The translations under genes were made by a program, and so were the position numbers. From an uncultured virus (IMG/VR IMGVR_UViG_3300025816_000007) (lineage: Duplodnaviria; Heunggongvirae; Uroviricota; Caudoviricetes), in the IMG/VR virus record IMGVR_UViG_3300025816_000007: a stretch of 62,951 nt of DNA. One strand, given 5' to 3'. The notes under the pieces are model-generated. The model had not been told where the DNA came from. It was given only the letters and a program-made list of their open reading frames with translations, and searched no databases. This document shows positions 41,206 to 62,800 of the stretch, one piece after another (the stretch's first letter is position 1; each line of letters begins with the position of its first letter).

Positions 41206-41246
41206 ACATGTGTCAAACCATGGTATGTTCAATCATTGTTAAATAT

Positions 41247-41774
41247 CTATTTAAAGAGACTGCTCAGACTCTCTTTTTCTTCGCTAAATATTTCCTTGAG
41301 GGCCAATTCCGCATTCCATAAACCTATCACGTTTTGAACCAATTCATATCCAGATGGCACATCATCCCATGCGCCATTTTTCCATTCATCGAGTCTTCCG
41401 TCACTATTCACATCAATGCGTTCACCCAAATGGTGCTTCGCAAGTAGTAGAGTCGCTGTAACTAATCCATCATATTCCTTTCTATTTGTCTTGCAGAAAT
41501 TGAAAACTAAATCTTGGTCTTCTCTCCAAGATACTTGTTCATTCTTTCTTTCCAAGTAAAATGTTTCGTGACCGCCTTCAAATCTGATTTTTACCTCGTC
41601 GATTTCTGGTGGATTCCACCATTTTGCTTCATCACCACTATAATACTCAATTTTAGCCCTTTCTAAGATTGGACTATCAACAATCAATGCTTTCGCATCA
41701 GTTGTAAATTTATTCCATATCTCTTCTTCTACTTCCTTATCCCTTTCCATATACCAATAGTGTGTATATCCCAT
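41247..41774 (-). CDS. Conserved viral-type hypothetical (MGYTHYW...FNFCKTNRKEYD)
   Basis: Recognisable motif set. Confidence 0.75.
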   Translation of the reverse strand: MGYTHYWYMERDKEVEEEIWNKFTTDAKALIVDSPILERAKIEYYSGDEAKWWNPPEIDEVKIRFEGGHETFYLERKNEQVSWREDQDLVFNFCKTNRKEYDGLVTATLLLAKHHLGERIDVNSDGRLDEWKNGAWDDVPSGYELVQNVIGLWNAELALKEIFSEEKESLSSLFK

Positions 41775-41781
41775 GTTTAAT

Positions 41782-42157
41782 TTACCTTAACTTGCTAACT
41801 TCGTCCAGGGCCTCATCATTCTTTCGAACTTAGATTCATATCATTGTGTCCCTATGTCTTTTATTGCTTCGCTAGAAGGCCATGTAGGTTCCAAAAGTGC
41901 GGGCTGCGATCACCTCCACTAACTGCCCCGATGTATGACATGCGTCACCGCATATCAGCTCCCATCACTTTCCTACAATTTTACGATTAAAACCGAATCC
42001 TACTCGCCATCGTGTCAAATAAGTCCACGCAATAGGAGCGAGTGCATTAATCCTTTTTTTTGCTCCCAATTACTTCTTACGAACGCACTCGAACTTCTCT
42101 GCAATCAACAGAGAATAGTTGCGTGGTTTCATTTCAACCGTCTTTTGTTCAATCTTT
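41782..42157 (-). ncRNA. Candidate structured ncRNA (~375 nt) between two motif copies
   Basis: No minus ORF of 60 aa or more; several complementary segments incl. possible pseudoknot. Confidence 0.5.
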
Positions 42158-42200
42158 CATGTTCAATATTCTAAGCCACAGGGGGCTTAGGGTATTTGGT

Positions 42201-42464
42201 TCAATCTTGCTCGTCCCAAGCTTTGATTTCATCACTGTTATTTTCGCATTCTTTATCTTCATAGTAACCTTCTGCTTCGACTCCTAAGAAGTCTAAGTGC
42301 CGCCCTATCATGATGCCTATCGCATCAATTAAGGCCAACATCTCATTCGTGTGGTCGTGCATGCATGATACATCTTTTCTTATTTCAGAAAGTGAATAGA
42401 TTACATATGCTAATACGATAATTCCAATAAATCCTAAATCATTCAGTTGTATATCTAATACCAT
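42201..42464 (-). CDS. Small protein with N-terminal TM
   Basis: ORF from motif ATG. Confidence 0.6.
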   Translation of the reverse strand: MVLDIQLNDLGFIGIIVLAYVIYSLSEIRKDVSCMHDHTNEMLALIDAIGIMIGRHLDFLGVEAEGYYEDKECENNSDEIKAWDEQD

Positions 42465-42466
42465 GT

Positions 42467-42844
42467 TCAATTGAAGTCGATTACTATGTTATTTCTGTCG
42501 TATTTGCCTTTATGTGACAAAGCTTTCTCAAACTTCTTCTCGTATAGTTCTGGATTTTCTTTGAAAAGACAAAATATGCATTCATCGATGATGCAATGAT
42601 TTACACAAGGGCCACCGTTCTCATCATAGTGAAATTGTGGTTCTTTGCTTGGAATACCAAACTCTGGCTCACTGTATGTTTTGCCATCAGCCCACACCCA
42701 TTCAGTTTTTATTTTGTAAATTCCACAACAATAACCGTCTGAACATTGTGTGCATTTCCAATATTTTTCCCCATTGTCTCGACTTATCAAAACCAAATTC
42801 TTCAAATTTTCATATCTTTTTCGATATTTTGGTCTTCTAACCAT
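42467..42844 (-). CDS. Cys-rich hypothetical protein
   Basis: ORF motif to motif. Confidence 0.65.
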   Translation of the reverse strand: MVRRPKYRKRYENLKNLVLISRDNGEKYWKCTQCSDGYCCGIYKIKTEWVWADGKTYSEPEFGIPSKEPQFHYDENGGPCVNHCIIDECIFCLFKENPELYEKKFEKALSHKGKYDRNNIVIDFN

Positions 42845-42846
42845 GT

Positions 42847-43047
42847 TCAATTTGTCAACAATTTTTTGGGAACTTCTTGTACAACCTTCGTCGCCAAAGA
42901 GACTACAGTCGCCCTTTTACCGTTATGTGATAAAACCTCAACTAGTTCATCTTGCATCAATGAACCTATTGAATCTACCACCCTCAATATATCCCCCATC
43001 CTAATTGTATCTTCTAACCATACAAACGGTACATTCCAGTCTGTCAT
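42847..43047 (-). CDS. Hypothetical protein
   Basis: ORF motif to motif. Confidence 0.6.
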   Translation of the reverse strand: MTDWNVPFVWLEDTIRMGDILRVVDSIGSLMQDELVEVLSHNGKRATVVSLATKVVQEVPKKLLTN

Positions 43048-43056
43048 GTTTAATTT

Positions 43057-43395
43057 TCAAAAGTTTGAAAGGTTGAGCTTTAAGTTTGATTTCTTGGACT
43101 TGGACTTAGGCTTTCGCTTTTTACTCCATTTCAATACTTCAAACTCTGTGGCTTCACAAGTGTAGGCAGACCTTTGAGATACTGCCACCTCTACATTCTT
43201 GTATGTACCAAATTCCCTTGGCAACTCAATTCCTTGAGGGTGTTCTACCTTGATTCTTTCCATCACTTCTTCTTTCAAATCTTCTATATCCTTCTTCATT
43301 TTATTGTGCGTATCCATCATTTCTCGAAGCATTTTCAAATCTTCGATTAGCACACTTAATTCTTGAAATTCACCATATTCTAGTTTACTTTCCAT
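43057..43395 (-). CDS. Hypothetical protein, coiled coil with basic tail
   Basis: ORF from motif ATG. Confidence 0.65.
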   Translation of the reverse strand: MESKLEYGEFQELSVLIEDLKMLREMMDTHNKMKKDIEDLKEEVMERIKVEHPQGIELPREFGTYKNVEVAVSQRSAYTCEATEFEVLKWSKKRKPKSKSKKSNLKLNLSNF

Positions 43396-43403
43396 GTTTA
43401 ATT

Positions 43404-43583
43404 TTACCAGATTTTGTATTCTTTCTCTGGGTCTAAATTTCGTGGCAGAATAAATTCTTCGTCATCTTCTGCTAAACTCTTAATAAACTTCCAAACTTTA
43501 TCTGCTAACTCCTCTGGCAATGCTATTTCTTGCAATGCCCCATTAGATCTATCTACGAATACTCCCCATGTATTTACTTCCAT
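43404..43583 (-). CDS. Small protein, 59 aa
   Basis: Hand-translated MEVNTWGVFVDRSNG... Confidence 0.6.
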   Translation of the reverse strand: MEVNTWGVFVDRSNGALQEIALPEELADKVWKFIKSLAEDDEEFILPRNLDPEKEYKIW

Positions 43584-43591
43584 GTTTAATT

Positions 43592-44956
43592 CTAATTAAA
43601 TGGTGCAAGTTTACACCCATTATGGCACAATTCGCCTATTTTTCTTTCACAATGACAAAAAGGACAGTCTTCATATTCTGACCGCCCCCTATCATTGAGT
43701 TGTGTTGCCGCAGAGCTTCCGCAATGCGTACACGCTCCGGACATATCTGTTGTTGTGTGGTCGCAACCGTTGTCAATTGACGTGACGATGTGTTTTACCT
43801 GAACACTTACACCCCAACTGCAATTATTACACTCATAGTAATATGCATCTCTATCATGATTCGCTTCTACTTCACCGCCGCAATCGGGGCAAGGATAGTT
43901 AGTCAAATCAGCGGATAGTTCATCTCCAACTTTCAGTTTATTATAATCCATGTTCAATTCTTGTTCTTTTTTCCACTCTGCATGAACCTCAACCCATGCG
44001 TGTGTTATTTGTTCTGCTAACCAATCCCCTGTTGCGTCTATGAATTCGTCTGTAGACTCTTCTGCATCATATATTTCTTTTTTTATTATTGAATGCAACG
44101 CATCCGTAAATGCATGAGGGTGGTCGGCACAATCTAATATTTGCCCAATCACTTCAAGATTTTCTTCGTACACTGCCAAACTACACATTTCTTGTATGTA
44201 GTGGTTACTTATATTTCTTGACAAGTAGTGTAGAAGTTCATATCCATCTTGAAAAGGGTTTTCTATACCGTTATATTCCATCCCTACAATTGCATCTTCA
44301 TGCATTCCAGTTCCAAGATTCAATTTGATGCTCTCAACAAATTCTGCATCATTAACAAATCCATTTTCTAGCCAATCTTCTTTTCCGCCTCGATAGTAAA
44401 ATTTAGCAGGCATTTGTTCTATCACAAAATCCCCGTCCTTAACCATCGCTGATTCAAATAAATTGTAAGGCAGATGATATCTTGCTTCGTGAGAATTCGC
44501 AGGCCTGTAGTAATTTAGCCCTGTGCGACTCCCCTTTGCGATATACCAGTCATTTATTACTGCCATATTTCCGTTTTCATCTTGCATAAATGTGAGCCCA
44601 TACTTGTGTCGTTTCGCAAGTGGGTTGACATTCTCATCAAATGGCCTACATTCTACATCTACTTCCTTGAACCATAGATGATTTGCATCGTGAGTATCGC
44701 TCCCGTATTCATGGACTTGCATAATCACAGTCTCAGCATTCTGTTCCATTCCAAGTTTAGAGGCTAATATTGACAAATCTTCATCATCTTCGTCAGTTAG
44801 CTTCAATCTTGAAGGAAATATTACTGGCACTACCAAGTATTTGCTTTTTTTTGGTTTATTAGCTAAATGCTTATGCCAACATTCAGGGCCATAACCCCGT
44901 TCTTTGCTTACTTTTGATTTTAGTTCTTTTTTGCATAATTTACAATTATCAAACAT
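43592..44956 (-). CDS. DUF6011-like Zn-finger protein fused in frame, through a motif copy, to a Cys-rich unit (43592-43951)
   Basis: CKLCKKELKS..S.ERGYGPECW; internal motif at 43949 reads ELNM. Confidence 0.7.
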   Translation of the reverse strand: MFDNCKLCKKELKSKVSKERGYGPECWHKHLANKPKKSKYLVVPVIFPSRLKLTDEDDEDLSILASKLGMEQNAETVIMQVHEYGSDTHDANHLWFKEVDVECRPFDENVNPLAKRHKYGLTFMQDENGNMAVINDWYIAKGSRTGLNYYRPANSHEARYHLPYNLFESAMVKDGDFVIEQMPAKFYYRGGKEDWLENGFVNDAEFVESIKLNLGTGMHEDAIVGMEYNGIENPFQDGYELLHYLSRNISNHYIQEMCSLAVYEENLEVIGQILDCADHPHAFTDALHSIIKKEIYDAEESTDEFIDATGDWLAEQITHAWVEVHAEWKKEQELNMDYNKLKVGDELSADLTNYPCPDCGGEVEANHDRDAYYYECNNCSWGVSVQVKHIVTSIDNGCDHTTTDMSGACTHCGSSAATQLNDRGRSEYEDCPFCHCERKIGELCHNGCKLAPFN

Positions 44957-44962
44957 GTTCAA

Positions 44963-45625
44963 TTATTCAAATAGGAAGTGATATTTCTTTTTGCCATCAG
45001 GCCCAATATCCTCTTTATCCCATTTACCTTCCTTAATTTCTTCTCTTAGTATCCGTCGTGAACTCCAACGGTCTCCCGAATGTTTTTTTTCGTCTAGTCC
45101 AGGATAACCCCTTTCCAAAATGTCTATTCCAGACATACCAAATATTCTAATTGGTATGCAATCAATTTTTGGAGTCCCTATATCATAGATTTCAAAAAAC
45201 TTTGAAACTGCTTCTTCAACCAAACTTTCATATTTCGGCCAGTGCATCTTTACTTTTCCAGTCCTCACATCGCTAGCTAAATCCGCAAGCAATTCAAGCA
45301 TATCGTTGTATGCCTTGTGAGACCATCTAATACGGAATTGTCCTACTTCATGATATTTCATTCCACGAAGCGATGTTTCTGCATCTAACAATTTACCTGC
45401 TTTTGTAGTTTCATAGTTCCAAGTCAGTCTTGACCTACCCCCTACTGAATTCATCATGTCATTTGCTCTATCTTTTGCCCATTCTTTCGGCACTATACAT
45501 CCTTCTTCCATTTTATCTGTCGTAACGCAAAGTTTCATCTCACTCTTCATTTTAACTAAAATGAGATTTACTTTGCTAAGTATATCTTTTCTCTTTTCTT
45601 CAAAAATATCTTCCATACTTCCCAT
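44963..45625 (-). CDS. Hypothetical protein
   Basis: ORF from motif ATG. Confidence 0.7.
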   Translation of the reverse strand: MGSMEDIFEEKRKDILSKVNLILVKMKSEMKLCVTTDKMEEGCIVPKEWAKDRANDMMNSVGGRSRLTWNYETTKAGKLLDAETSLRGMKYHEVGQFRIRWSHKAYNDMLELLADLASDVRTGKVKMHWPKYESLVEEAVSKFFEIYDIGTPKIDCIPIRIFGMSGIDILERGYPGLDEKKHSGDRWSSRRILREEIKEGKWDKEDIGPDGKKKYHFLFE

Positions 45626-45635
45626 GTTAAATTTT

Positions 45636-46568
45636 CTATAACTCATAATTCCATTCTTCCGTTTCGAAATCGCTGGAATGTATTTCTATTTCATTGTACG
45701 AAATCCATTCAAATACTGTTGCTGTAATTCCATCAAAGTAGCAATCCACAATATGTTGCAAAGGATCTTCTTTGAATTGTCCTTCACTGAATTCATAGCA
45801 ATTACTTGCGTATTCAGATATTCCTTCAATTGTATTATCCTCCATGCAATCAACTACTCCTGATAATCTTTCTTGTATGGTTTGCTTTTCCTCTTTTGTA
45901 AATCTTCTTTCTTGACCGTAAACATACCACTCGTAACATGACTCTACCAAGTCTGTTTCTTTGATTTTAGATAAAGCGACACCGTAGTTGGTGTTCTCTT
46001 CTAAAAACATCTTAACCTTGTTTTGACTAGTATATTCGTCTTGAGGCAAATAGCCCGCATCATGAAGAGTTTTGAAATCATATTCCAACGAATCGCTTTC
46101 GTCATTCGCACTTGCAAATTTTGGAACACTATTCAATTCATCACCCCAATGACCCAATCTCTGATACAAGTAGGTCAAAATGCCGATAAATAAACTTCCA
46201 TGGCCTAATCCATTCTTTGCTCCATGCGATGCTTCTAAATGAAAGCAAACGATGTGTGCCATTTCGTGAATAGCACAATTTCTATCTGCTTCCATCCTAT
46301 ACTCTATTTTACAGCCTTCTTGTAAAACCCCTACGCCTCTATATGCTCTGCCAAGATAATTTTCTTTTACATCTTGGAAAAAATAATACCGAGGCATACA
46401 AATCCCATACATTTTTGAGATTCTGTCCATCGTGTTAACCATTTGCTTCATTGATTCATTAAAACAAGTAATACGGGGATTGCTGCAATAGTGTGTGCTA
46501 TTCATCGCAAATTCGTAATTATATGCGAGTATAGCCTCATCTTTCCTCTTTTTATCATCATTTGTCAT
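45636..46568 (-). CDS. Zincin-like (HExxH) metallopeptidase-domain protein
   Basis: AIHEMAH...GHG..F. Confidence 0.65.
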   Translation of the reverse strand: MTNDDKKRKDEAILAYNYEFAMNSTHYCSNPRITCFNESMKQMVNTMDRISKMYGICMPRYYFFQDVKENYLGRAYRGVGVLQEGCKIEYRMEADRNCAIHEMAHIVCFHLEASHGAKNGLGHGSLFIGILTYLYQRLGHWGDELNSVPKFASANDESDSLEYDFKTLHDAGYLPQDEYTSQNKVKMFLEENTNYGVALSKIKETDLVESCYEWYVYGQERRFTKEEKQTIQERLSGVVDCMEDNTIEGISEYASNCYEFSEGQFKEDPLQHIVDCYFDGITATVFEWISYNEIEIHSSDFETEEWNYEL

Positions 46569-46570
46569 GT

Positions 46571-47425
46571 TTAATATGTTAGACACTTTTCAATCATGCC
46601 TTTGTCAATCTCAATAGATATGCTGTGTCTACCTGTTTGCAGACAGGCTGCTGCGAGTGACAAAGAACCTGCGAAGGGATCTAATACAATCTCTCCTGGT
46701 TCAGAGCCAAACTCAACTAACCTTGCAATCAAATCAATTGGCTTTTGCGTTTCATGCCTCCTTACCAAGTAGTGCTCTCTTGGATAACACAATACATCTG
46801 GTGTTGCCCTCATAGGATGTCCTTTTCCGAATAACCTTCGCTTTCCTTTCGAAAAGAAGTAAATCAATTCGTGTCTTGCTCGGCCTCGGTAGCCCATTCC
46901 CATGTGTTTCTTATCCCAAACCCATTGCCTGTTGTAAGTCCAACCACACTCCTTAGCTATCTTGATTTGATTTTCAAGATATTCATGTGTATCACTTGCG
47001 CTTGCTGGCATAAATGAAAACATGTGTCCTCCTGGCTTCAAAATCCTCAACAGTTCCGAATAATACTCCTCATCAAGGTCTTCTGTCTGGAATAGCCACC
47101 CCTTTCTTAGGTTTCTTTTCCTAGTAGTCCCTGTTTGCATTTGTTTGTCAAGTATATTGTATGGAAAATCCATAATTATTTGGTCGATTGATTCATCGTC
47201 TATCTTCTTGAGTTCTTCTCGACTGTCACCATTTATGATGACTGCTTGAATTTCTCCAAAGGTAGCAATGTATATGCCTCGACCAATTCTTTCAAAACAC
47301 CTACCAACATTTTCATTGAGTCGCCCCCGAATCGTTGATTCTTTTTCGTCCTTAAAATTTGAATATATTTCAACTAAGCTTTTACTTTCTTTCAAAAACT
47401 CCCATATTCTGTTTTTCAAACTCAT
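46571..47425 (-). CDS. N4/N6 DNA methyltransferase (beta class) with N-terminal HTH-like domain
   Basis: IIMDFPY, LKPGG, HETQKP, VLDPFAGS. Confidence 0.9.
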   Translation of the reverse strand: MSLKNRIWEFLKESKSLVEIYSNFKDEKESTIRGRLNENVGRCFERIGRGIYIATFGEIQAVIINGDSREELKKIDDESIDQIIMDFPYNILDKQMQTGTTRKRNLRKGWLFQTEDLDEEYYSELLRILKPGGHMFSFMPASASDTHEYLENQIKIAKECGWTYNRQWVWDKKHMGMGYRGRARHELIYFFSKGKRRLFGKGHPMRATPDVLCYPREHYLVRRHETQKPIDLIARLVEFGSEPGEIVLDPFAGSLSLAAACLQTGRHSISIEIDKGMIEKCLTY

Positions 47426-47427
47426 GT

Positions 47428-47592
47428 TCAATTCTTGTGTCGTTTCGATTGTTCATCACCTTCTGTAATTTCATTAACCAAATCCCAAAATTCCATCCAA
47501 CTAATACCAATCATATTTTCTAATTCCTCATCGGGTGTGTTCATCCATTCACTCAAGTTTATTATTATCATCTTCATTAATTCTATATTCAT
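47428..47592 (-). CDS. Small acidic protein, 54 aa
   Basis: Hand-translated; preceded by 7-codon mini-ORF at motif 47610; stop in motif. Confidence 0.5.
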   Translation of the reverse strand: MNIELMKMIIINLSEWMNTPDEELENMIGISWMEFWDLVNEITEGDEQSKRHKN

Positions 47593-47618
47593 TGTTCATC
47601 AACTCCTTCCATGTTAAA

Positions 47619-48653
47619 TTAAGCCTCTTGTTTTACCAAAGAGACTGGTTTTCTAGTCATTGTACCACATTGGTTCGGACATTCGTCACATCTTGTATCA
47701 CAAGCAATCACAAATGTATCCCAATCTTTGTACTTATCAAATCCTTTTTCTGACAGGAGCATACCTGCAGATTTCTTTCTGCCTGCCTTTCCTGTTGTAT
47801 ATGATTTGACATGATTCATATTTTCATGCAGAAGATAGTCATTTCTAGGGTCATTCCCCTCAAACTTCCATGGTGTTTCGAGAATCCTTATTCCGTATTT
47901 CTTCGAAAATTCATAGAAAAACTTCTGCGTTTCATCTAATAGCTCTCCTATCGGATTTTCCCTATCAAAAGAAGCCGAGCAGATTCTCATGTATACTGAA
48001 TCTGCGAATTTGCTCTTCCTTGGCCTAGTCATTTTATCAAACCTAACCAAAATTGATAGAACCGTTTGGACTCTATTTTCATCTTTCCTTCGCCCCACTG
48101 CTATGTGTGGTGCCCATTCGTAGCCAGGAATCAAACTAAAGTGTATGATAGCCCCTGCAATCGCCAACCTTTCTAGTTGTACATCACTGGGAAACTTCCA
48201 CATCTTTGTAATTACTACTGTTCTAACTCCCATTCTACCTGCCGCTTCTGCAAATCTGCAAGCGGCATCCCAATCATAACTTGGATCTCCCAAAGTTCCA
48301 TTTCTTACCCAATTCAATACATACGCTTGCTCGTCACCAAAATGTACATTGTTTGACATCATTTTGTAAATGTCGTACTGTATGATTTCAGGACACACGC
48401 ATTGTGTTACTGGGTCGGTGAATACTAGTCCACCTTGTAAAAACCCCATAGACCTTGCTGCGTAGCAACCAAAACAACCGCCTGCACATCCTTTTGTTGT
48501 GTCAGATACATTCGGTTCTGTTTTCGAGTTACCTTGAATCCTAGCTAAATTTCTAGGAGAGGGCACTCTTGGCTTTTCTCCGCCGCATTGAGTCTTTATT
48601 GTTTTCCTCACTTTTTCCTTTTGTATAACAGGTAATTCCATTATCTTTGCCAT
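47619..48653 (-). CDS. Radical-SAM-like protein
   Basis: GCAGGCFGCYA (CxxxCxxC), RNGTLGDP, VITK, C-terminal CxxxCxxCxxxC. Confidence 0.65.
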   Translation of the reverse strand: MAKIMELPVIQKEKVRKTIKTQCGGEKPRVPSPRNLARIQGNSKTEPNVSDTTKGCAGGCFGCYAARSMGFLQGGLVFTDPVTQCVCPEIIQYDIYKMMSNNVHFGDEQAYVLNWVRNGTLGDPSYDWDAACRFAEAAGRMGVRTVVITKMWKFPSDVQLERLAIAGAIIHFSLIPGYEWAPHIAVGRRKDENRVQTVLSILVRFDKMTRPRKSKFADSVYMRICSASFDRENPIGELLDETQKFFYEFSKKYGIRILETPWKFEGNDPRNDYLLHENMNHVKSYTTGKAGRKKSAGMLLSEKGFDKYKDWDTFVIACDTRCDECPNQCGTMTRKPVSLVKQEA

Positions 48654-48663
48654 GTTTAATTGA

Positions 48664-48876: not shown

Positions 48877-48884
48877 TGGTGCTC

Positions 48885-49094: not shown

Positions 49095-49103
49095 GTTCAA
49101 TAG

Positions 49104-55179: not shown

Positions 55180-55181
55180 GT

Positions 55182-55679: not shown

Positions 55680-55692
55680 GTTTAATTGTTAA

Positions 55693-55839: not shown

Positions 55840-55841
55840 GT

Positions 55842-56126
55842 TTAATCTTCTATCCAAAATGTTCTAGTTTGGTAATGCTTTCCTTTTCTCTTTCCTTCTT
55901 TGGCCTTAGTCTTAGACCTTAGAATTATCAGAACTCTTGTTCGCATCACTGTCTTTTTCCCTTTCTTGATTGGTATTGATGTAGTATCAATTGATTCTAC
56001 TATCCAAGTTTTTATCTTATCCATCAAGGGACTTTTTTGCACTAGTTTCTTGCTCAACAATATCTTGGTTTTGACTTCATCTCCAACTGAAATGTTTTTG
56101 ATTGGTCTTCTGTCAATCATTACCAT
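55842..56126 (-). CDS. Basic hypothetical protein
   Basis: ORF ending in motif. Confidence 0.65.
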   Translation of the reverse strand: MVMIDRRPIKNISVGDEVKTKILLSKKLVQKSPLMDKIKTWIVESIDTTSIPIKKGKKTVMRTRVLIILRSKTKAKEGKRKGKHYQTRTFWIED

Positions 56127-56538
56127 TCCACCTGCCTTGAAGTATTACTTGCTCGAAGGTAATCTTACCATCTTTACGCGTTTTATCCCGTTGTCTTCCA
56201 AATTTAGAAACGATTTCATTCATCTTCAAAACCTTGCCCTCATCTGGAATTACTTGCCATTCTTCACCGACCTTTTCTGTAGCCCATGCTTCAAGCGGGA
56301 ATTGTCCGTCTTCGAGTGCTTCAAGTGTTTCAGATTGCAATGATTCAATTCCAAGTTCTTTGAGGAAGCCGTCTATGAGTATATTCAACCCATCTATAGT
56401 ATTGATTAAAGATTCATTTGTCGAATCTACATCCACCACTTCTCTCAATTTCCTATCAACCATTTCTTGCTGAACTTTTTCTCTTTCTTTTCTTAGTTCT
56501 TGTACTCTTTTGTTAACATCTTTTATTCTGTTACCCAT
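56113..56538 (-). CDS. Hypothetical protein
   Basis: ORF from motif ATG. Confidence 0.65.
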   Translation of the reverse strand: MGNRIKDVNKRVQELRKEREKVQQEMVDRKLREVVDVDSTNESLINTIDGLNILIDGFLKELGIESLQSETLEALEDGQFPLEAWATEKVGEEWQVIPDEGKVLKMNEIVSKFGRQRDKTRKDGKITFEQVILQGRWNGND

Positions 56539-56686
56539 GTTCAATTACTGATTACTCCATTATCCTGTTACAACCTTTACAGCTAGTTGGGTGACACCCA
56601 ACGTGGCGCGGCATAGGATTGTCGCATTTACAAATTTCCTCTGGAAAGTATTCATCATCTTCTAAATTATCTTTCATGTTTAATCA

Positions 56687-56902
56687 TCACCTAAACCGAC
56701 TTAGCGGGGGCATTCGCCCCATAGCCATGCACTTTAGCAGTTCAACATCTTCTATTTCAGTGATTTGCACCAATTCAAGTTTCTTGATTGCTTTTTTAGT
56801 TGCTAACCACATATGAATTGTATTTGCATCATCTCGGTTGTTCATATAGTGACATACTCTTTTTTTGTTTTTTACATATGTTATTACATATCTTTTAGCC
56901 AT
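56687..56902 (-). CDS. Hypothetical protein
   Basis: ORF. Confidence 0.55.
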   Translation of the reverse strand: MAKRYVITYVKNKKRVCHYMNNRDDANTIHMWLATKKAIKKLELVQITEIEDVELLKCMAMGRMPPLSRFR

Positions 56903-57488
56903 TGACAATCACCGTGTCAGGAAGGTCAGCTACTGTGATGCTTGAATCTACTACAACCCAAACATTAGCTGTTCCACCTCGGCTTGTTGGCCTTCTTTCT
57001 CCCGACTTGCCTACGACACCTGCTTTGTCTAGCAGGCCTCTAGGGTATCGAATTGAGTTTTTCTTTGCTTCTTTTCCAAGATTCAAACGCTTTTCAATAA
57101 CAGACTGTATTTCGTCATCTGTCAAACCGTCTTCATGATCGAGTAGTGCCTGGTAAATGTCCCTTGACATCTGCCCAATCGCTGCTGTGCTTGGTAGTTC
57201 TTTTTCTCCATCTCCGTATAGTTCCAAACGATTAAACAATACTTTCAATCTATTATTGATTATCTCGTCATCTTCTGCACCTAGCAGAATATCTAACATA
57301 GTCTGCATCATGCTTCGGTTTCCAATTCCAATTTTCCCATCAGGGAATAATTGTCTCATTAGATCGAATTCTTGTTTACTCAAATTCAGTATCAAGTGAT
57401 GCTCATTTACAATATGTCCATCTCTAAGGTTCACGTCGTTTTGAATAAAGTCAACTTCTCCGCCTTTCAAATCACTCATTTTTCTCAT
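56895..57488 (-). CDS. Winged-helix DNA-binding protein
   Basis: GLTDDEI...SIRYPRGLL..G.V..SGERRPTSRG..ANVW. Confidence 0.7.
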   Translation of the reverse strand: MRKMSDLKGGEVDFIQNDVNLRDGHIVNEHHLILNLSKQEFDLMRQLFPDGKIGIGNRSMMQTMLDILLGAEDDEIINNRLKVLFNRLELYGDGEKELPSTAAIGQMSRDIYQALLDHEDGLTDDEIQSVIEKRLNLGKEAKKNSIRYPRGLLDKAGVVGKSGERRPTSRGGTANVWVVVDSSITVADLPDTVIVNG

Positions 57489-57512
57489 GTTAAATCCCTT
57501 ACTTCACTAAGG

Positions 57513-57580
57513 CCAAAAAAAAAGCGACCCTGCTCGGTTCTTTCTTCTGCCGAGTAGAGTCGTTAATTGTTGTGTTTAAT
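57513..57580 (-). terminator. Hairpin plus T9GG terminator-like unit headed by motif variant ATTAAACACA
   Basis: CGAC..CTGCTCGG / CCGAGTAG..GTCG stem; A9 on +. Confidence 0.7.
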
Positions 57581-57589
57581 TTGATTACC

Positions 57590-57907
57590 TCATTGTGAGG
57601 CGTCGTTAGCGAAATTTCTGACCCTCCTCACAAGGTCATTTGCGGCAAGTGACTCATCTGATAAGTCATCTTTTATTATCCGCAAAGCCTCTGTAAGTTT
57701 GGCCTCTCTAGCATCCCAATCTCCAGTTCCATTCTTCCAAAAATAGAATTCTTTCACTTGCCAAAGTTCGATACTGCCTATTTTGCCCACCAAGTAGCGG
57801 CGCTTATGCCAGTATTCTTCAGGCGCTAGATGCTTAAAGTTGTCTTCTGGAATAAATTCTTTCCCATCTATAACTATCACTGCTTCCTTTTCGTTCACTT
57901 TTTCCAT
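57590..57907 (-). CDS. Hypothetical protein
   Basis: ORF from motif ATG. Confidence 0.65.
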   Translation of the reverse strand: MEKVNEKEAVIVIDGKEFIPEDNFKHLAPEEYWHKRRYLVGKIGSIELWQVKEFYFWKNGTGDWDAREAKLTEALRIIKDDLSDESLAANDLVRRVRNFANDASQ

Positions 57908-57926
57908 GTTAAATTTTTTAATAAGG

Positions 57927-57958
57927 GCCCTTAACGCCCCCTAGGGGGCGAGAAGGGC
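57927..57958. other. GC-rich hairpin GCCCTT..CGCCCCC-TA-GGGGGCG..AAGGGC
   Basis: Near-perfect inverted repeat in intergenic gap. Confidence 0.7.
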
Positions 57959-58035
57959 ATTTATGCTGTTGCTGTTATTTTTCCTTCCTCGTCACAGCAT
58001 ATTAATTCATAATTCACCATTTGGCCGTAAATCCT

Positions 58036-58998
58036 TCAAGCTTCGACTTGTATTGCTTCCGATTCCTCTTCCACGTAAAAGTCATTAATTCTTGCTGGCT
58101 TACTTACCAAACGGTGTTCTTCGACATTCAATTCATACTTGTGTGCAGGCTTAAAACCGAATAGTGGATTGCTTTTACACCATGTCCACTTAGGGAATAC
58201 ATTGTAGTGCTCCCCTTTCCTGTTCATCCTGATTATATTTTCACATGAGCACTTTGATTTGCTTGCATCGCAAAAAGTTCTTACAAATTCACTATGATTT
58301 GACCTGTTCCAAGTCTTGACTTGATTGTGGATTGGCGTGTATGCCTTTTTCTTTCCAACAAACAACCACTCTCCCCACATGTTGTCCCACCTATATTGTG
58401 AGTCATCAATGTATTTTGCGGAGTCTCTTTGGAATTTGTCTTCGCCCCAGTTTTCCAGTCGGGCTTGAGGATGTTCAGCGGACTTTTCTTCCACTTTCCT
58501 CAGTAGAGGCATATTTTCTTGCTCTATCATCAAATCGTAGATTTCTTCATTATTTTGAAGGTAATCCCATTCATCGAATAACATAGAGTGTCTGCCAGCC
58601 TCATATCCCGCTTCATTTTCCTTTGTAATTTCATCCATGGCTTCTACCAATAAATTTTCTGCTGCCAAGGCCGTCAAAACTATCTGACCTGTAGCTGTGT
58701 TATGGCACATTCCATTTAGTGCCAGTTTTCGGTAATGCCAGGAATTGTCTCCGTAGTTCTCTAACTCATTGTTTTCTTGTGCATCAATTTCAAACATAGC
58801 TGTGTTGTCATTGTAGCGACCAAAAACCTCGTTCACAAAAAAGCCTTTCAATCCCCAATATGGGTGTTTTTCTCCGCCTTTCATTTGGTGAACTCCGAGG
58901 TCCCCTGGTGCTTTCGAATGTTGAGCCATGATTGGTGATGCTGTACAAAATATGTTATGTCCTTCTCCTATCGTTCCTGTTTTGAATTTATTATTCAT
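58036..58998 (-). CDS. Hypothetical protein
   Basis: ORF from motif ATG. Confidence 0.7.
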   Translation of the reverse strand: MNNKFKTGTIGEGHNIFCTASPIMAQHSKAPGDLGVHQMKGGEKHPYWGLKGFFVNEVFGRYNDNTAMFEIDAQENNELENYGDNSWHYRKLALNGMCHNTATGQIVLTALAAENLLVEAMDEITKENEAGYEAGRHSMLFDEWDYLQNNEEIYDLMIEQENMPLLRKVEEKSAEHPQARLENWGEDKFQRDSAKYIDDSQYRWDNMWGEWLFVGKKKAYTPIHNQVKTWNRSNHSEFVRTFCDASKSKCSCENIIRMNRKGEHYNVFPKWTWCKSNPLFGFKPAHKYELNVEEHRLVSKPARINDFYVEEESEAIQVEA

Positions 58999-59006
58999 GT
59001 TTAATT

Positions 59007-59249
59007 TCATAAAGTTGAAAAGTCACTAGCACCAAGCCACATATCATATTGTAACTCTACTGTATCCTTGTCCAAAGTGTATTGTTCATTGCCAATGAAA
59101 ATAATCACTTCATTGCCAAGTTTTTCAGCCCATAATGCAATTTGCATTTCTATTTGTCTATTTGACGCTTTATCGAATTTCATCGATGCTTCGTTTAGAT
59201 CAATACTTCCTTCTCTACCTCTATTCGCAAGCCATAATTGCCTTGTCAT
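59007..59249 (-). CDS. Hypothetical protein
   Basis: ORF from motif variant ATTAGACATG. Confidence 0.6.
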   Translation of the reverse strand: MTRQLWLANRGREGSIDLNEASMKFDKASNRQIEMQIALWAEKLGNEVIIFIGNEQYTLDKDTVELQYDMWLGASDFSTL

Positions 59250-59322
59250 GTCTAATTGTATATTGTAAGTTTACAATATATTCTATCTGTTTATCTTTAT
59301 CTTTATCTTTATTTTTCGTTGT

Positions 59323-59362
59323 AAAAGGAGGAGAAGGGGTCGCATTGCTGCGACCCCCCTCC
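59323..59362 (-). terminator. Hairpin GGGGTCGCA-TTGC-TGCGACCCC, terminator-like
   Basis: 9-bp perfect stem 59336-59357 followed by pyrimidine/T tract on minus. Confidence 0.55.
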
Positions 59363-59552
59363 AAAATTCCACATTTAGAATGATTCGCCACTACCCTTCG
59401 ATTCTAACCCGATTCGTAGTGGGTGTTAACTCAATTAAGTCATATTGACGCAATCCTTGAGCACACGGCTTCATTGGGTTTCCCCTTCACCGCATTCACA
59501 TAGTTTCACTTTTTATGTGGGTTTCTAATAATATAAACTAATGATTGTAGCT

Positions 59553-61064
59553 TTACTCGTTAAAAACTTGGTTTATATTGAGGTCTATCATGTAATCTGA
59601 TTCCTCATTTTCTGCCAGTTCAGAGTATCCTAAACTTACACCTGCACCAGTGAATTTCACAAATGCTTGGTGTATTGGGTTGCTAACCATGTTATTTAGT
59701 TCTGTAGTCCATGACTTCTTTTCTGCTGGGTCCGTAGGTGGCCTATTTTCTAACAACATGTCTTCCTTGTTCGAAAACAGTGTCTGCCACTTGTGGTGGT
59801 CGCTTCCGGCTTTTGGCCTTCCACTCGCTTCCGCTGCCTTGTAACCATGCTCAGGAATTTCTGTTTCATCATCAACAAATATTATCATTCGAGCACCGGT
59901 GTAAACACCAAATCCTCTCACCAAATGTCTTAGATGGTCCAGTTGTTTTTCGTCAATTCCCTTTGTATCATTAGCGTAAAATGCCCCATTGCTTGAGCCA
60001 AGAAGGGTTTTCAAGTTGATGTTATTTCTAACCTCGCACTCAATCCAATTCTTTTCGACTGATGTTATGCTCGCCAGTTCTGCTGGTATGCATGGTTGAG
60101 GAGCCAATACTGTGTTAAACATAGGATAACTAATCTTTGCAACACCCTTTTTCAAGGCGATGCTGTTGATATCATCCCAGTCCATTTTTCCAGCGTCCTT
60201 CATACCAATGCGTTCCTTTGCTTGGTCTGCTCTAGTCAAAATTTTTCCATTCTCGTCAAGCACTGAAATTCGGCTTTTTTGTATTACTGGAGCATTAAAT
60301 ACTCCATCTGCCGGCATTTCCGCAATTGCTATAACTTCCCATTCATTCGAACTGTTCAGTAGTTTTTTACCAAATTTGTTCGTCCTGTAAGTCTTTTTCA
60401 CAAAGAAGAGTTGATTCTTTTCCTCAGCATTGTCATCATAAACAACATTGCCCATAAGTAAGTTTATCATCATGTTCGCCTCGTATGCATTCCACAAACG
60501 CTCCTTTTTCTTGAAGCTGATTTGTTGGACTTGCTGATATTGTTCAGCAGTGTCGTTGTCCCTTCGCTTTCGAGTGTACCAAGATCTGTTTAGGTAGTTT
60601 CTTGCATCCAATAGTGATTCCATTGATGCACTAACTCTAACATTGTCCCTACCAGTACCCCTGTATTCTATACCCACTTCACCTTTAGTTTGGTTGATGT
60701 GATAAACAAGTCTACTTTCAGGAATACCAAGTTTCCTAATTGCTTTGAGTAGCCAAGCCGCTTCCGGCGTTTTTGGCGTAGCATGTTGTACAGCCTCATC
60801 GTAAAATGATACTGCTAACTTTTCTGCTATAACATCGAACCAGTAACTAGGAGCAATAAATTTTATGCTCCATGTGTCGTTTTTCTTGTCGAAGTTTCTC
60901 TCAATCTTTAGCTTCTTATTTTCATTATTTGACAGCCTATCTACGATAGAACGGTACATAACTAGACCTGTAATAATCCAGTTTACCGCTTTATTCTTCA
61001 ATTTGTCCGTCAAGCTCATTTCTCTTTTTTTATTTTCTGTTTTTGTTTTTTCTTTATTTCCCAT
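59553..61064 (-). CDS. Large hypothetical protein, 503 aa
   Basis: Long ORF with GGAGGT SD; no family recognised. Confidence 0.8.
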   Translation of the reverse strand: MGNKEKTKTENKKREMSLTDKLKNKAVNWIITGLVMYRSIVDRLSNNENKKLKIERNFDKKNDTWSIKFIAPSYWFDVIAEKLAVSFYDEAVQHATPKTPEAAWLLKAIRKLGIPESRLVYHINQTKGEVGIEYRGTGRDNVRVSASMESLLDARNYLNRSWYTRKRRDNDTAEQYQQVQQISFKKKERLWNAYEANMMINLLMGNVVYDDNAEEKNQLFFVKKTYRTNKFGKKLLNSSNEWEVIAIAEMPADGVFNAPVIQKSRISVLDENGKILTRADQAKERIGMKDAGKMDWDDINSIALKKGVAKISYPMFNTVLAPQPCIPAELASITSVEKNWIECEVRNNINLKTLLGSSNGAFYANDTKGIDEKQLDHLRHLVRGFGVYTGARMIIFVDDETEIPEHGYKAAEASGRPKAGSDHHKWQTLFSNKEDMLLENRPPTDPAEKKSWTTELNNMVSNPIHQAFVKFTGAGVSLGYSELAENEESDYMIDLNINQVFNE

Positions 61065-61881
61065 TTCGATACCTCCATATCGTAATTTTGTTGTTCAATT
61101 ATGTTAAATCAAAGTTTCATCTCTATTTTGTTTATCACTTCGGCATAATCCTGTCTGCCTCCGATTTGCGAATTCCAAATCACTACTCCAACAACCCGAT
61201 TCCAAAATATATCTTTTGGATTACAAAATGTCCATTGCATTTCTGTATGCTCCCATACTGAGTAGAAATGTTTGTCAATTTCGATTTTGGGTTTGATTCA
61301 AATTCACATATTAGGCTCTACTGTCTCCAGCGAACTTTCATATCTTCCTTTGAACCAAGTTGTTGTAAGAGTAGCTTCAAAACTCCATAGTTCTTCCACT
61401 TATCCTTGTGTGCTCTCCTATCTGGAATAATCCAGCTAATATGCTGGATTAAGCACGTATTATGTTCAATTGCTTGAATCCCTCAACTGCTTTTACACAG
61501 GAGAGTTAGAGTGTAGGTTCAAAACCTTCCATTCTTTCGATGGCATCATTTTATCCGTCGATTCGCATCAACAGCCTGGACTCAATTATTAGACTTCCAT
61601 TCGTCCAACCATTCGCTTTTGTTCCGATTCATTTCACGTACTTCGTGGGCGGGCCTTATCCCCATCTTCCAACTTCTGTATTCATTCTGTTCTGCACAGA
61701 TATGACACTTCCATTACCCGGTGTATCGGTTGATTGAAGGCATTGTTACCACGTAGCCGTGATTTGGTATAATTTAACCATTTTACCCTCCTGGACCTTC
61801 AATCGTATGAAGAGACACGCGCGATATACGCCACTCCGCTCCTCTTCACTTTACTAGGTCATTGGGGTCTTAAGCCCCTCC

Positions 61882-62199
61882 CTAATGTTTAATTTTGTTA
61901 AGTTTCGATAACTCATAACTCCACCATGATTCATCAGGCCTCCAAGACCCAAATTTGTATAGAGCCTCATTTGCTCTCCATTGTTCCATGAGTGGTTTTA
62001 GTGCGTCGGCTCGCCTGTGTTGCCCCCTTCCAAAGGCCATTCTGCGAGCCAAACGACTAACTTTGCCATCAAAACTTCCTTCTTTTGATTGCTTATGTCG
62101 CTCCCAAAAAATAGCATTTTCTATCCGTTCTAGTTCTTGCTGTTGTTTTCTGTAAAAGTCTAGTTCTTTTTTGTAAAAGTCTATATCTACTTCTTTCAT
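61882..62199 (-). CDS. Hypothetical protein
   Basis: ORF from motif ATG. Confidence 0.6.
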   Translation of the reverse strand: MKEVDIDFYKKELDFYRKQQQELERIENAIFWERHKQSKEGSFDGKVSRLARRMAFGRGQHRRADALKPLMEQWRANEALYKFGSWRPDESWWSYELSKLNKIKH

Positions 62200-62212
62200 G
62201 TTAAATTGTAAT

Positions 62213-62800
62213 TATGTTTAATTGATGAATCATTAAGTGGTGTAACGCCGCTTCCGATAACCTTCCTCAGTTGCATAAGCAACCGTATGATAGCTTAGTC
62301 ATACCCCGTAAGGGTTTAGACTAGAGTAGCCTCGGTTCTGTTATTCCAATGACATTGCTGTCAATGAAATCTATCAAATGTCTGACGACCATAATGTCCC
62401 TCGGAATTTACCGAGTGTCCAACCCACCCTTTCGTTTGATGTGGTCCTTTACGCCATTACACCTGATTCATCTTAGTGTATTTATTCATACCCCTGCTCC
62501 ACGGGGGTTAGATCTTCATCCTTCTGCTCTTTCGAGTGTTGTCGGTTTCTGTTGTCAATTACTCAACTCCGCCGACAGCTTGCCTCTGGTAAGCAACCAA
62601 AGGCAGTTCACGGATGATGCTTATTCGAAGGCGTGACTAAGTGAAGCTCACGTATCTTCGAATGTGTTCAGTCGGTAAACCGTAATTCCTCAAGATTATC
62701 CTTGCTAAAGGTTCCTTGAGGCGACTTGTGAGAGTCCTTAGACTCACCGACTTCAATATTATATGCTACTGGGCGGTTAAGCCCTGTCCATATGTTTAAT
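62213..62800 (-). ncRNA. Candidate large structured ncRNA (~570 nt) bounded by two ATTAAACATA motif variants
   Basis: About ten or more stems incl. long-range GATGAATCA/TGATTCATC and GGTGTAA/TTACACC; strand inferred from motif orientation. Confidence 0.6.

What the first reader, a model, noticed from the sequence alone, without database searches (positions are those of the whole stretch)
41224..62800. The motif loses its ATG (ATTDAACATA/CA) at non-coding units, so its role is not only translational
Seen: ATA variants at 41224, 61100, 61461, 62213 and 62791, and ATTAAACACA at 57571. None supplies a start codon, and most head hairpin or non-coding segments. Several ATG copies start only tiny ORFs: MGSW* (18225), MSIDRMTQRG* (30717), MKD* (42158), MEGVDEQ* (47610). 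The motif also persists where the upstream stop lies outside it (38180, 43045, 52414). Inference: the ATTDAACA core acts at the DNA or RNA level.
Basis: partly seen in the sequence, partly recalled or inferred. Interest (0 to 1): 0.8.

Follow-up and report, generated by a model that had tools for sequence, protein, structure and literature searches.

The report
Start-less copies of a viral gene-start motif
In this marine, probably archaeal, virus about 83 genes on one strand begin with the same 7-base element fused to ATG, and a few copies that lack the start codon head structured non-coding stretches or terminator hairpins, so the element probably marks where RNAs begin rather than only helping ribosomes.

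Summary
All six listed sites are real, as are the four tiny ORFs. I found one more start-less copy, ATTAAACATT at 61884-61893.

In the window alone the excess is modest. ATTDAACATW occurs 6 times against 2.65 expected, and 3 of 100 shuffles reach 6. All six lie on the gene strand, and five lie within 1.7 kb at the head of the gene array.

Relatives make the case stronger. They use other cores before ATG (ACTGAAC, ACTGACC, ACCGCTC, ATTTGAC) and carry start-less copies too. One complete relative has 8 against 0.9 expected, and 7 of the 8 start with A. In 11 loci the array ends with core, A, a covarying hairpin and a T-run.

The cores have no Shine-Dalgarno and no TATA/BRE upstream. They persist after terminators, and in the window they are avoided inside genes on both strands. 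The family encodes an archaeal-type RNA polymerase A''-like protein. Two complete relatives encode a TFB-like factor beside the array head.

Best reading: a virus-specific initiator-type gene-start element that gives leaderless mRNAs. The ATA copies start non-coding RNAs or leaders. RNA processing and translational reinitiation remain live rivals. No RNA 5' ends could be mapped.

The parts
18225..62206 (-). Array of 83 copies of RATTDAAC-ATG-R. 79 open ORFs of 40 aa or more and 4 open ORFs of 3-10 codons. There is no SD or TATA/BRE signal upstream.
62791..62800 (-). ATTAAAC-ATA. It heads a 571-nt non-coding unit (62223-62793) that opens with a 5' hairpin.
   Evidence: (z -7.0)
62213..62222 (-). 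ATTAAAC-ATA, the upstream member of a tandem pair. It lies 16 nt before ATTTAAC-ATG (62197-62206), which starts a 105-aa ORF.
61884..61893 (-). It heads a 416-nt non-coding unit (61471-61886). That unit holds a roughly 75-nt element (61539-61612) shared with relative G001.
   Evidence: (z -3.3)
61461..61470 (-). ATTGAAC-ATA. It heads a 354-nt non-coding unit (61110-61463) with a 5'-proximal hairpin.
   Evidence: (z -4.7)
61092..61109 (-). Tandem ATTTAAC-ATA and ATTGAAC-AAC, 38 and 28 nt upstream of the ATG (61064) of a 503-aa gene. That gene has its own SD (GGAGGT).
57571..57580 (-). ATTAAAC-ACA, 9 nt after the stop of the upstream ORF. It is followed by a hairpin and T9-GGCC (T-run at 57515-57523), then by the next core-ATG at 57495.
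   Evidence: (MFE -17.2)
41224..41244 (-). Tandem ATTTAAC-AAT and ATTGAAC-ATA. They head a 202-nt unit (41025-41226) made of two hairpin plus T-run terminators.
   Evidence: (z -6.1)
42146..42167 (-). Tandem ATTGAAC-ATG (a 3-codon ORF) and ATTGAAC-AAA. They head a 379-nt stretch with no ORF over 34 aa. Its fold is not significant (z -1.65).
18129..18234 (-). Array end: the last core (ATG plus a 4-codon ORF), about 85 nt of structure, then T-run-GGCC. This is the counterpart of the core-A-hairpin-T-run module of the relatives.
18050..18078 (-). ATTAAAC (18072-18078), 22 nt, then the ATG of a conserved 74-aa gene. This is a separate TTAAACGG element kept in every clade (TATA-like, inferred). It is not the array core.
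15147..17831 (+). 894-aa protein like the archaeal RNA polymerase subunit A'' (Rpo1C). It is the family marker used to find relatives.

Best explanation
The 7-base core plus the A that follows it is a virus-specific gene-start element read on DNA. It works as an initiator-type promoter that fixes the transcription start at that A.

When the A belongs to ATG, the RNA is a leaderless mRNA. That explains why these genes have no Shine-Dalgarno sequence. When the next bases are TA, TT or a C-containing pair, the same element starts an RNA with no ORF at its 5' end. In the window such RNAs are structured non-coding units, the leader of an SD-led gene, or a short hairpin trailer before a terminator.

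The proposal is the host's archaeal RNA polymerase reprogrammed by viral proteins: the A''-like subunit encoded in the window, and a TFB-like factor that two complete relatives encode beside the array head.

Shown: the anatomy, the strand bias, the clade-specific cores, the conserved start-less copies, the absence of SD/TATA/BRE, and the folds.

Inferred: that RNA 5' ends lie at the A, that the element is read on DNA, and which protein reads it.
For: 1. Each clade has its own core fused to ATG, on one strand only. The window has ATTDAAC 83 times. G001 has ACTGACC, 60 on one strand against 1 on the other. G002 has ACCGCTC, 87 against 0. Ten loci have ACTGAAC and L004 has ATTTGAC/ATTTAAC. A host ribosome signal would not change clade by clade. 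The same phage-like genome uses ordinary SD sequences elsewhere.

2. C at -1 and A at +1 are kept in every clade. Start-less cores keep A at +1: 7 of 8 in G002 and 10 of 15 in the window. Of 18 start-less cores in these arrays that have A at +1, 15 have a pyrimidine at +2.

3. There is no conserved position between -45 and -11 in any of three genomes (information content 0.13 bit or less). The signal at -10 to -8 (up to 0.39 bit) reflects the stop codons that abut the core. So there is no SD and no TATA/BRE.

4. Exact cores stand where reinitiation is impossible, directly after terminators or non-coding gaps. Examples are 57495, 41024 and 57914; gaps between stop and core run from 18 to 422 nt.

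5. Start-less cores exceed chance in G002: 8 against 0.89 expected, p 4e-6. In the window they mutate only the G of ATG.

6. In the window, cores are avoided inside the 79 ORF bodies on both strands: sense 3 against 11.2 expected, antisense 2 against 9.3-9.5 expected under codon shuffling. Only 4 of 60 (sense) and 2 of 60 (antisense) composition-matched control patterns are as depleted. Avoidance on the antisense strand is expected for a signal read on DNA, not for one read on RNA.

7. The family encodes initiation machinery. The A''-like protein has archaeal Rpo1C as its best solved match (E 1e-32). The 363-aa protein of G002 and the 316-aa protein of G001, next to the array heads, match only TFIIB/TFB/Brf among the top 36 fold hits (P. 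woesei TFB: target TM 0.73-0.76, rmsd 3.4-3.5 A).

8. Leaderless starts seem to be used elsewhere in this virus. TTAAACGG, 22 nt and then ATG, with no SD, is kept across clades.
Against: - No RNA 5' end was observed (one search gave contigs only).
- Archaeal promoters normally need TATA/BRE, and none is present here. A TATA-less start would be unprecedented for this machinery.
- The TFB-like gene was found only in two distant relatives, not in the window. The window stops about 150 nt beyond the first core.
- No catalytic polymerase subunit is detectable in the window or in G001/G002.
- A promoter placed directly before a terminator makes little sense. Yet all 3 strong T9 terminators in the window have a gene-less core 57-97 nt upstream. 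In 11 loci the array ends with core, A, hairpin and T-run.
- Four contigs of one RNA library (run X1, a relative) include a core and stop 1-2 nt after it. That looks like RNA 3' ends at the core, which a plain promoter does not predict.
- The within-ORF depletion is only at about the 3rd to 7th percentile of controls. It is testable in one genome only.
- The window-only excess of ATA/ATT copies is modest.
Confidence: 0.4

Rival explanations
1. RNA processing site. The array is transcribed as long polycistronic RNAs. A sequence-specific endoribonuclease, viral and co-evolving with the core, cuts at the core. The cut gives each gene a leaderless 5'-AUG and leaves the core at the 3' end of the upstream mRNA. 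Start-less cores trim leaders and trailers and release non-coding RNAs.
For: - It explains naturally why a core follows the last gene of each unit, just before the terminator. This holds for 3 of 3 strong terminators in the window, for the covarying array-end hairpin module in 11 loci and for G002 48352.
- Four X1 RNA-library contigs end 1-2 nt after a core.
- It needs no TATA/BRE at each gene.
- The clade-specific cores fit a co-evolving nuclease as well as they fit a promoter factor.
Against: - No nuclease candidate was found. Pfam scans of 122 window proteins and a PHROG scan of 30 of them gave none.
- Units that follow strong terminators would still need a promoter, and only 19-23 nt with no recognisable promoter lie between the T-run and the next core.
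- Avoidance of the core on the antisense strand is not expected for a signal read on RNA.
- The contig ends come from one run, from a relative, lie 1-2 nt past the expected cut, and could be assembly breaks.
Confidence: 0.25
2. Translational signal. The core is a spacer or recognition element for termination-reinitiation, or for SD-independent ribosome recruitment on polycistronic mRNA, perhaps through a viral factor. Start-less copies are then either the termination context of the last gene in a unit or disabled former starts.
For: - Stops sit very close to the start. In the window the stop lies inside the core in 42 of 83 cases. In G002 the stop abuts the core in 30 of 85 cases and lies one base away in 13. 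Upstream ORFs almost never run through the core.
- The variable fourth base is never C, so the core always holds a stop codon in one frame.
- One tiny ORF (47619) ends in an ATGA overlap with the next gene.
- Five of 8 start-less cores in G002 directly follow a stop triplet.
Against: - Exact cores persist where no upstream ORF ends nearby, including after terminators.
- Cores differ between clades, whereas ribosomes are conserved, and the same genome uses SD elsewhere.
- Start-less cores keep the core and +1 A intact, head structured non-coding units and stand 28-38 nt upstream of an SD-led gene. None of this is useful for reinitiation.
- ACCGCTC holds no stop codon and yet behaves the same way.
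Confidence: 0.2
3. Cassette boundary or decay. The cores are short recombination joints between shuffled gene cassettes. The ATA copies are dead starts of decayed genes with no function of their own.
For: - RNA-library contigs of relatives diverge from the window exactly at cores, and a further core variant ([AC]TCAAAC) is seen there.
- Five of the 6 changes are G-to-A transitions.
- The frame from the ATA at 62793 stays open for 41 codons and ends in a core-like ACTGAAC.
Against: - Neutral decay would strike the core as often as the ATG. Instead 6 of 14 one-mismatch variants change only the last base, and several of the others are working starts (GTG at 23745, and the variants at 59256 and 19376).
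- The non-coding units fold far better than shuffles.
- One unit shares a roughly 75-nt element with a distant relative.
- The array-end module is conserved with covariation across clades.
Confidence: 0.1

Closest known systems
Late promoters of giant phages with their own polymerases: phiKZ TATG (G is the start) and AR9 AACA-N6-TA/G. Read as passages of PMC5312081.
   Same: A very short virus-specific motif at or near the start site is repeated before many genes and is read by non-host-type initiation.
   Different: Those phages encode complete polymerases, and AR9 leaders are 26-491 nt. Here the motif abuts ATG, no catalytic subunit is detectable and the host is probably archaeal.
Halovirus HF2 intergenic repeats that carry promoters. 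Read as abstract and passages of PMC8707807.
   Same: Repeated intergenic elements in an archaeal tailed virus act as promoters. Their most conserved part runs from 7 nt upstream of the start site to 1 nt downstream.
   Different: Nine repeats of 29 or 58 bp were tested, with a TATA box at about -26 and a BRE, and they are read by host factors. Here there are about 83 copies of an 8-nt element with no TATA/BRE.
Consensus early-gene regulatory sequences of Sulfolobus viruses. Read as abstract and passages of PMC11065993.
   Same: Many small early genes of an archaeal virus share one regulatory sequence.
   Different: Those sequences are canonical TATA plus BRE cores with flanks, not a motif fused to the start codon.
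Poxvirus late initiator TAAATG and the coccolithovirus EhV-86 motif before 86 genes.
   Same: A short promoter or initiator overlaps or abuts the ATG of many genes in a virus with its own transcription factors.
   Different: Those are eukaryotic viruses with complete polymerases. No test was run here.
Termination-reinitiation coupling at stop-start junctions, and leaderless mRNAs made by MazF-type cuts. Both are recalled.
   Same: Stop and start lie within about 10 nt, and genes are translated without SD.
   Different: Neither uses a clade-specific 7-nt word, and neither explains start-less copies or copies after terminators.

Membership tests
Shine-Dalgarno ribosome binding site | A purine-rich GGAGG-like word 5-10 nt upstream of the start | tested here: not met
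   There is no such signal upstream of the 83 cores. It is present at genes in 1-18 kb and at about a dozen array genes that lack a core.
Canonical archaeal promoter (BRE/TATA) | An AT-rich TATA box centred near -26 and a BRE upstream of it | tested here: not met
   Information content is 0.13 bit or less from -45 to -11 in the window (83 sites), G001 (60) and G002 (85). A TATA-like TTAAACGG at the right distance exists only at another gene class.
Translational coupling (termination-reinitiation) | The upstream stop lies within a few nt of the start at every junction | tested here: inconclusive
   Met at most junctions. Not met at cores that follow gaps of 18-422 nt or terminators.
Hairpin plus T-run terminator | A GC-rich hairpin followed by a T-run | tested here: met
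   Window 57523, 41152 and 18137: T9 runs with upstream 45-nt MFE of -13 to -17. Array-end hairpin in 11 loci: 97.9% of cells paired, 5 of 10 pairs with compensatory changes, 0 of 500 shuffles as good.
Known RNA families (Rfam 15) | A match to a covariance model | tested here: not met
   No match at gathering score in the window. No match at E up to 1 in 56000-62951.
Virus-encoded multisubunit RNA polymerase (phiKZ/AR9 type) | Catalytic double-psi barrel subunits (DxDGD motif, Rpb2_6, Rpb1_2) | tested here: not met
   No DxDGD motif in the window, G001 or G002. No PF00562 or PF00623 hit in G001/G002. Very divergent subunits could be missed.
TFB/TFIIB (the protein beside the array head in relatives) | An N-terminal zinc ribbon and two cyclin folds | tested here: met
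   Model pLDDT 70. The top 36 Foldseek hits are TFIIB/TFB/Brf. Cys pairs lie at the N-terminus. Pfam TFIIB scores are just below the cut-off: 23.0 and 18.6 against 23.6 bits. The gene is absent from the window as far as it reaches.
Magrovirus 'group D' (Philosof 2017, PMC5434244, passages) | Thermosome, resolvase and RNA polymerase A of archaeal type | tested here: met
   The A''-like gene is in the window. A thermosome and a serine resolvase are in relative G001.
Magrovirus 'group D' (Philosof 2017, PMC5434244, passages) | A B-family DNA polymerase, by which the group was defined | tested here: not met
   No PF00136 match in G001 or G002, and none among the window proteins scanned. Membership therefore stays open.

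The most novel reading that the evidence does not exclude
A family of roughly 128-kb marine archaeal viruses or elements carries its own TFB-like factor and an RNA polymerase A''-like subunit. With these it makes the host polymerase start, without TATA or BRE, at an 8-nt clade-specific initiator that abuts ATG. The result is about 60-90 single-gene leaderless transcription starts on one strand. Start-less copies of the initiator drive structured non-coding RNAs at the head of the array.
Probability: 0.3. Interest if true: 0.9.

Novelty: new variant of a known kind. Interest (0 to 1): 0.72.

Why it matters

Here a whole family shows a different gene-start grammar. A short clade-specific word is fused to the start codon of most early-type genes, and the same genomes encode a polymerase subunit homologue and a TFB-like factor.

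The start-less copies are the handle that separates an RNA-start function from a translational one. They also point to unknown structured RNAs.

If the reading holds, it gives three things:
- a compact portable promoter or leaderless-expression element for archaea;
- a direct way to call genes and transcription units in these uncultured viruses;
- a test case for how an initiation factor and about 90 target sites co-evolve.

My seven literature searches found no description of this motif.

Tried and rejected
- Phage collection: no DNA match for 41001-49000.
- Whole genome: none is held for this window.
- Rfam: nothing.
- Consensus scans: sigma-70-type promoter sites (63 against 58.6 expected) and terminator-like sites (13 against 11.3) are at background in 43-63 kb.
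- AR9-type reading (AACA at -11 to -8): rejected, because the start would fall inside the ORFs.
- Array core as a TATA box: rejected, because other clades' cores are not AT-rich and the start would fall about 23 nt inside each gene.
- ATA/ATT as start codons: rejected.
- An antisense copy of the core in the non-coding units, as a possible guide RNA: none. The only + strand copy in the array region, at 57231, lies inside a gene.
- Catalytic polymerase subunits, TBP and B-family DNA polymerase in G001/G002: none found.
- Nuclease or other candidate reader among 122 window proteins scanned: none.
- RNA runs: four runs were laid as contigs at 90% likeness. Coverage was patchy and mostly from relatives, and no table of molecule starts or ends was filled, so expression and RNA ends are not shown. 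The depth peak at 61025-61055 is a low-complexity A-rich stretch. Parts without cover mean nothing.
- GTDB genomes: only cellular archaeal A'' genes of DPANN lineages were found, so no host link came from this.
- The resemblance of AUUGAAC to the 8-nt 5' handle of archaeal CRISPR RNAs is recalled only. It was not tested, and other clades' cores do not share it.
- One literature search failed on term length and was not repeated.

Full report
**What the window is.** The window has 39% G+C. It gave no DNA match in the phage collection, no tRNA and no Rfam family. From 18 to 63 kb the - strand carries a dense one-way array of mostly small ORFs. The region from 1 to 18 kb carries larger genes with ordinary Shine-Dalgarno words such as AAGGAGG and GAGGTGAT.

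The recognisable array genes are DNA methyltransferases (Dam, C5, N4/N6), a Mom-like protein and a PAPS-reductase-like protein.

The 894-aa protein at 15147-17831 (+) carries RNA_pol_Rpb1_5. A profile of the protein and 15 relatives matches archaeal Rpo1C/A'' best (E 1e-32) and bacterial beta' only weakly (E about 1e-7 to 1e-8). Its nearest cellular relatives in GTDB genomes are archaeal.

Relatives come from marine metagenomes. They include two complete IMG/VR records of about 128 kb with direct terminal repeats, G001 and G002. G001 also encodes a thermosome (best matches are archaeal group II chaperonins) and a serine resolvase.

This gene set recalls the 'group D' sequences of Philosof et al. 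2017. That paper lists DNAP, thermosome, resolvase and RNA polymerase A and leaves the nature of the group open (PMC5434244, passages; see also PMC10160649, passages). I found no B-family polymerase in G001 or G002, so membership is open. The host is probably an archaeon. This is inferred.

**The motif.**
- ATTDAACA occurs 102 times against 19.1 expected.
- ATTDAACATG occurs 84 times against 1.56 expected, 83 of them on the - strand between 18225 and 62206.
- The logo is R-ATTDAAC-ATG-R, with nothing conserved further upstream.
- In 42 of 83 cases the stop of the upstream ORF is the TGA or TAA inside the core. In most other cases it lies within about 10 nt.
- ATTCAAC-ATG never occurs.
- ATTGAAC makes up 33 of 42 cores between 18 and 38 kb but only 15 of 41 beyond 38 kb (Fisher p 1.4e-4).

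**The observation.** All six listed sites and all four tiny ORFs are as described. I add ATTAAACATT at 61884-61893 and three companion cores in tandem pairs (61092, 42146, 41237).

In the window alone the statistics are moderate:
- ATTDAACATW occurs 6 times against 2.65 expected, and 3 of 100 shuffles reach 6. These shuffles inherit the dinucleotides of the 84 true copies, which raises the expectation.
- All six are on the gene strand, and five lie within 1.7 kb at the array head.
- Among one-mismatch variants of the 10-mer there are 14 on the sense strand and 4 on the antisense strand. Six of the 14 change only the final G; none of the 4 antisense ones does.
- At the level of the 7-mer core there are 15 non-ATG copies against 8.9 expected, so some are chance.
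- The ACA copy at 57571 is not frequent by itself. ACA follows the 8-mer at three sites outside the array.
- Reading from ATA or ATT gives 41, 4, 10, 4, 28 and 10 codons, so these are not hidden start codons.

**What follows the start-less copies.**
- Three of them head long stretches without ORFs that fold much better than shuffles: 62223-62793 (z -7.0), 61471-61886 (z -3.3) and 61110-61463 (z -4.7).
- The pair at 41224-41244 heads a 202-nt unit made of two strong hairpin plus T-run terminators (z -6.1).
- The copy at 57571 precedes a hairpin and T9-GGCC.
- The pair at 61092-61109 lies 28 and 38 nt upstream of a 503-aa gene that has its own GGAGGT.
- The 379-nt stretch after 42146-42167 is not significantly structured (z -1.65).
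- Each of the three strong T9 terminators in the array has a gene-less core 57-97 nt upstream.

**Relatives.**
- Every clade has its own 7-nt word fused to ATG on one strand. ACTGAAC occurs in ten loci and ATTTGAC/ATTTAAC in L004. ACTGACC occurs in G001 (60 on one strand against 1 on the other) and ACCGCTC in G002 (87 against 0). C at -1 and A at +1 are constant.
- G002 has 8 start-less cores in its array against 0.89 expected from the rest of the genome and the other strand (p 4e-6). Seven of them begin with A followed by a pyrimidine, and several are followed by hairpins.
- G001 has only two non-ATG cores: one with a GTG start, and one ATA at the array end.
- Across the window, G001 and G002, the 50 nt after start-less cores fold better than those after ATG cores: mean -9.2 for 25 sites against -4.65 for 228 sites (Mann-Whitney p 2.6e-4).
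- In 11 loci from two core clades the array ends with core, A, CC-hairpin and T-run. The hairpin is paired in 97.9% of cells, 5 of 10 pairs show compensatory changes, and 0 of 500 shuffles do as well. My first structure string was mis-registered by two columns and was corrected. L004 has core-ATA there.
- ACCGCTC contains no stop codon. Even so, upstream ORFs stop right before it (30 of 85 abut it, 13 lie one base away) and rarely overlap it.

**What reads the core.** There is no SD, TATA or BRE signal between -45 and -11 in three genomes.

Exact cores stand right after terminators, where no upstream ORF ends. They are therefore not only reinitiation spacers.

Inside the 79 window ORF bodies the core is scarce on both strands: sense 3 against 11.2 expected, antisense 2 against 9.3-9.5 expected under codon shuffling. 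Four of 60 (sense) and 2 of 60 (antisense) composition-matched control patterns are as depleted. G001 and G002 have too few expected sites to test. Avoidance on the antisense strand points to a signal read on DNA.

Both complete relatives encode, next to the array head and on the other strand, a protein of 316 or 363 aa with N-terminal Cys pairs. The two are homologous (27% identity, E 2e-10). Their Pfam TFIIB scores fall just under the cut-off. A profile of 12 sequences hits only TFIIB/TFB in the PDB, and weakly (E 0.009-0.6). The AlphaFold model (pLDDT 70) has TFIIB, TFB or Brf as its top 36 Foldseek matches; for P. woesei TFB the target TM is 0.73-0.76 and the rmsd 3.4-3.5 A. The window ends about 150 nt beyond its first core and holds no such gene.

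No catalytic polymerase subunit, TBP or nuclease candidate was found.

**A separate element.** The ATTAAAC at 18072-18078, 22 nt before the ATG of a conserved 74-aa gene, belongs to a TTAAACGG element kept in all clades whatever their array core. It is preceded by repeated GTGAAAACGGGGT-like boxes. The same ATTAAAC plus 22 nt plus ATG design, without SD, occurs at 14551 (+) and 6339 (-). I read this as a host-type TATA-like promoter giving leaderless starts. That is inferred. It should not be counted among the array cores.

**RNA data.** Only assembled contigs of RNA libraries were available. Coverage was patchy and mostly from relatives at 90-95% likeness.

Four contigs of run X1 include a core and stop 1-2 nt after it. 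Three of them carry a further core variant, [AC]TCAAAC. This comes from one run and could reflect assembly breaks. I count it as a weak hint of RNA ends at cores, and it fits processing better than a plain promoter.

**Verdict.** The inference that the core works without a start codon is supported, mainly by comparative evidence.

I favour an initiator-type, virus-specific gene-start element that gives leaderless mRNAs (0.4). The rivals are an RNA-processing site (0.25), a translational reinitiation or recruitment signal (0.2), and cassette joints with decayed starts (0.1).

The gene-less core in front of terminators is the main fact that the promoter reading does not explain.

The known systems nearest to this differ in three ways: motif length, their reliance on TATA/BRE or on a complete viral polymerase, and the motif's position relative to the ATG. 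Those systems are the phiKZ and AR9 late promoters (PMC5312081), the HF2 intergenic repeat promoters (PMC8707807) and the Sulfolobus virus early-gene consensus (PMC11065993).

Noticed in passing
L040:17115-18206 (+) in G002; L037:7346-8296 (+) in G001: A TFB/TFIIB-like protein (N-terminal Cys pairs plus two cyclin folds by fold search) is encoded beside the head of the gene array in both complete relatives. A conserved gene of about 147 aa follows it, convergently, on the other strand.
   Followed up: yes
window 15147-17831 (+): An 894-aa homologue of archaeal RNA polymerase subunit A'' (Rpo1C), more than twice the cellular size. It has four invariant Cys (C357, C360, C450, C453) in the extra part. 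No other polymerase subunit was detectable.
   Followed up: partly
window 18050-18140 (-); L004, L015, L036 and others: A conserved promoter-like block follows the array-end terminator. It consists of T-run-GGCC, two GTGAAAACGGGGT-like boxes, TTAAACGG, about 22 nt and then the ATG of a conserved small gene (W-EFRK-HKG motif). The block is kept in clades with different array cores.
   Followed up: partly
window 61539-61612 (-); G001 114086-114168: A non-coding element of about 75 nt is shared at 84-100% identity with a distant relative. It has a hairpin with two compensatory changes. Only two sequences are available.
   Followed up: partly
window 43949-43958 (-), inside ORF 43592-44962: An exact core-ATG lies in frame inside a 454-aa ORF. 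A nested 119-aa product with a zinc-ribbon-like hit may therefore be made from the same frame.
   Followed up: no
window 18-38 kb versus 38-63 kb (-): Core variant use depends on position. ATTGAAC makes up 33 of 42 cores in the downstream half but 15 of 41 in the upstream half. G002 likewise uses ACCACTC-ATG four times near its array head.
   Followed up: partly
window 40133-40160 and 40326-40353 (-); 30663-30690 and 39396-39425 (-): Short repeated intergenic blocks lie just upstream of cores. One is an identical 27-nt block before the cores at 40132 and 40325. Another is a GCGATGGCATA-containing block before 30662 and 39395; its CGATGGCAT word also occurs inverted in the unit at about 61540.
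   Followed up: no
window 20713-50033 (-): A cluster of DNA-modification genes lies in the array: Dam-like (33100-33969), C5 methylase (24993-25922), N4/N6 methylase (46571-47425), another methyltransferase (49104-50033), Mom-like (31247-32086) and PAPS-reductase-like (20713-21762).
   Followed up: no
run X1 contigs laid on window 45242-60852: RNA-library contigs of a relative carry yet another core variant ([AC]TCAAAC-A). They diverge from the window, or end, exactly at cores, which suggests gene-cassette shuffling at cores among co-occurring strains.
   Followed up: partly
window 12848-12857 (+): The only core-ATG on the other strand starts an NlpC/P60-LRAT-like gene (12855-13355) inside the SD-using module. 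The stop of the upstream gene lies inside the core.
   Followed up: no
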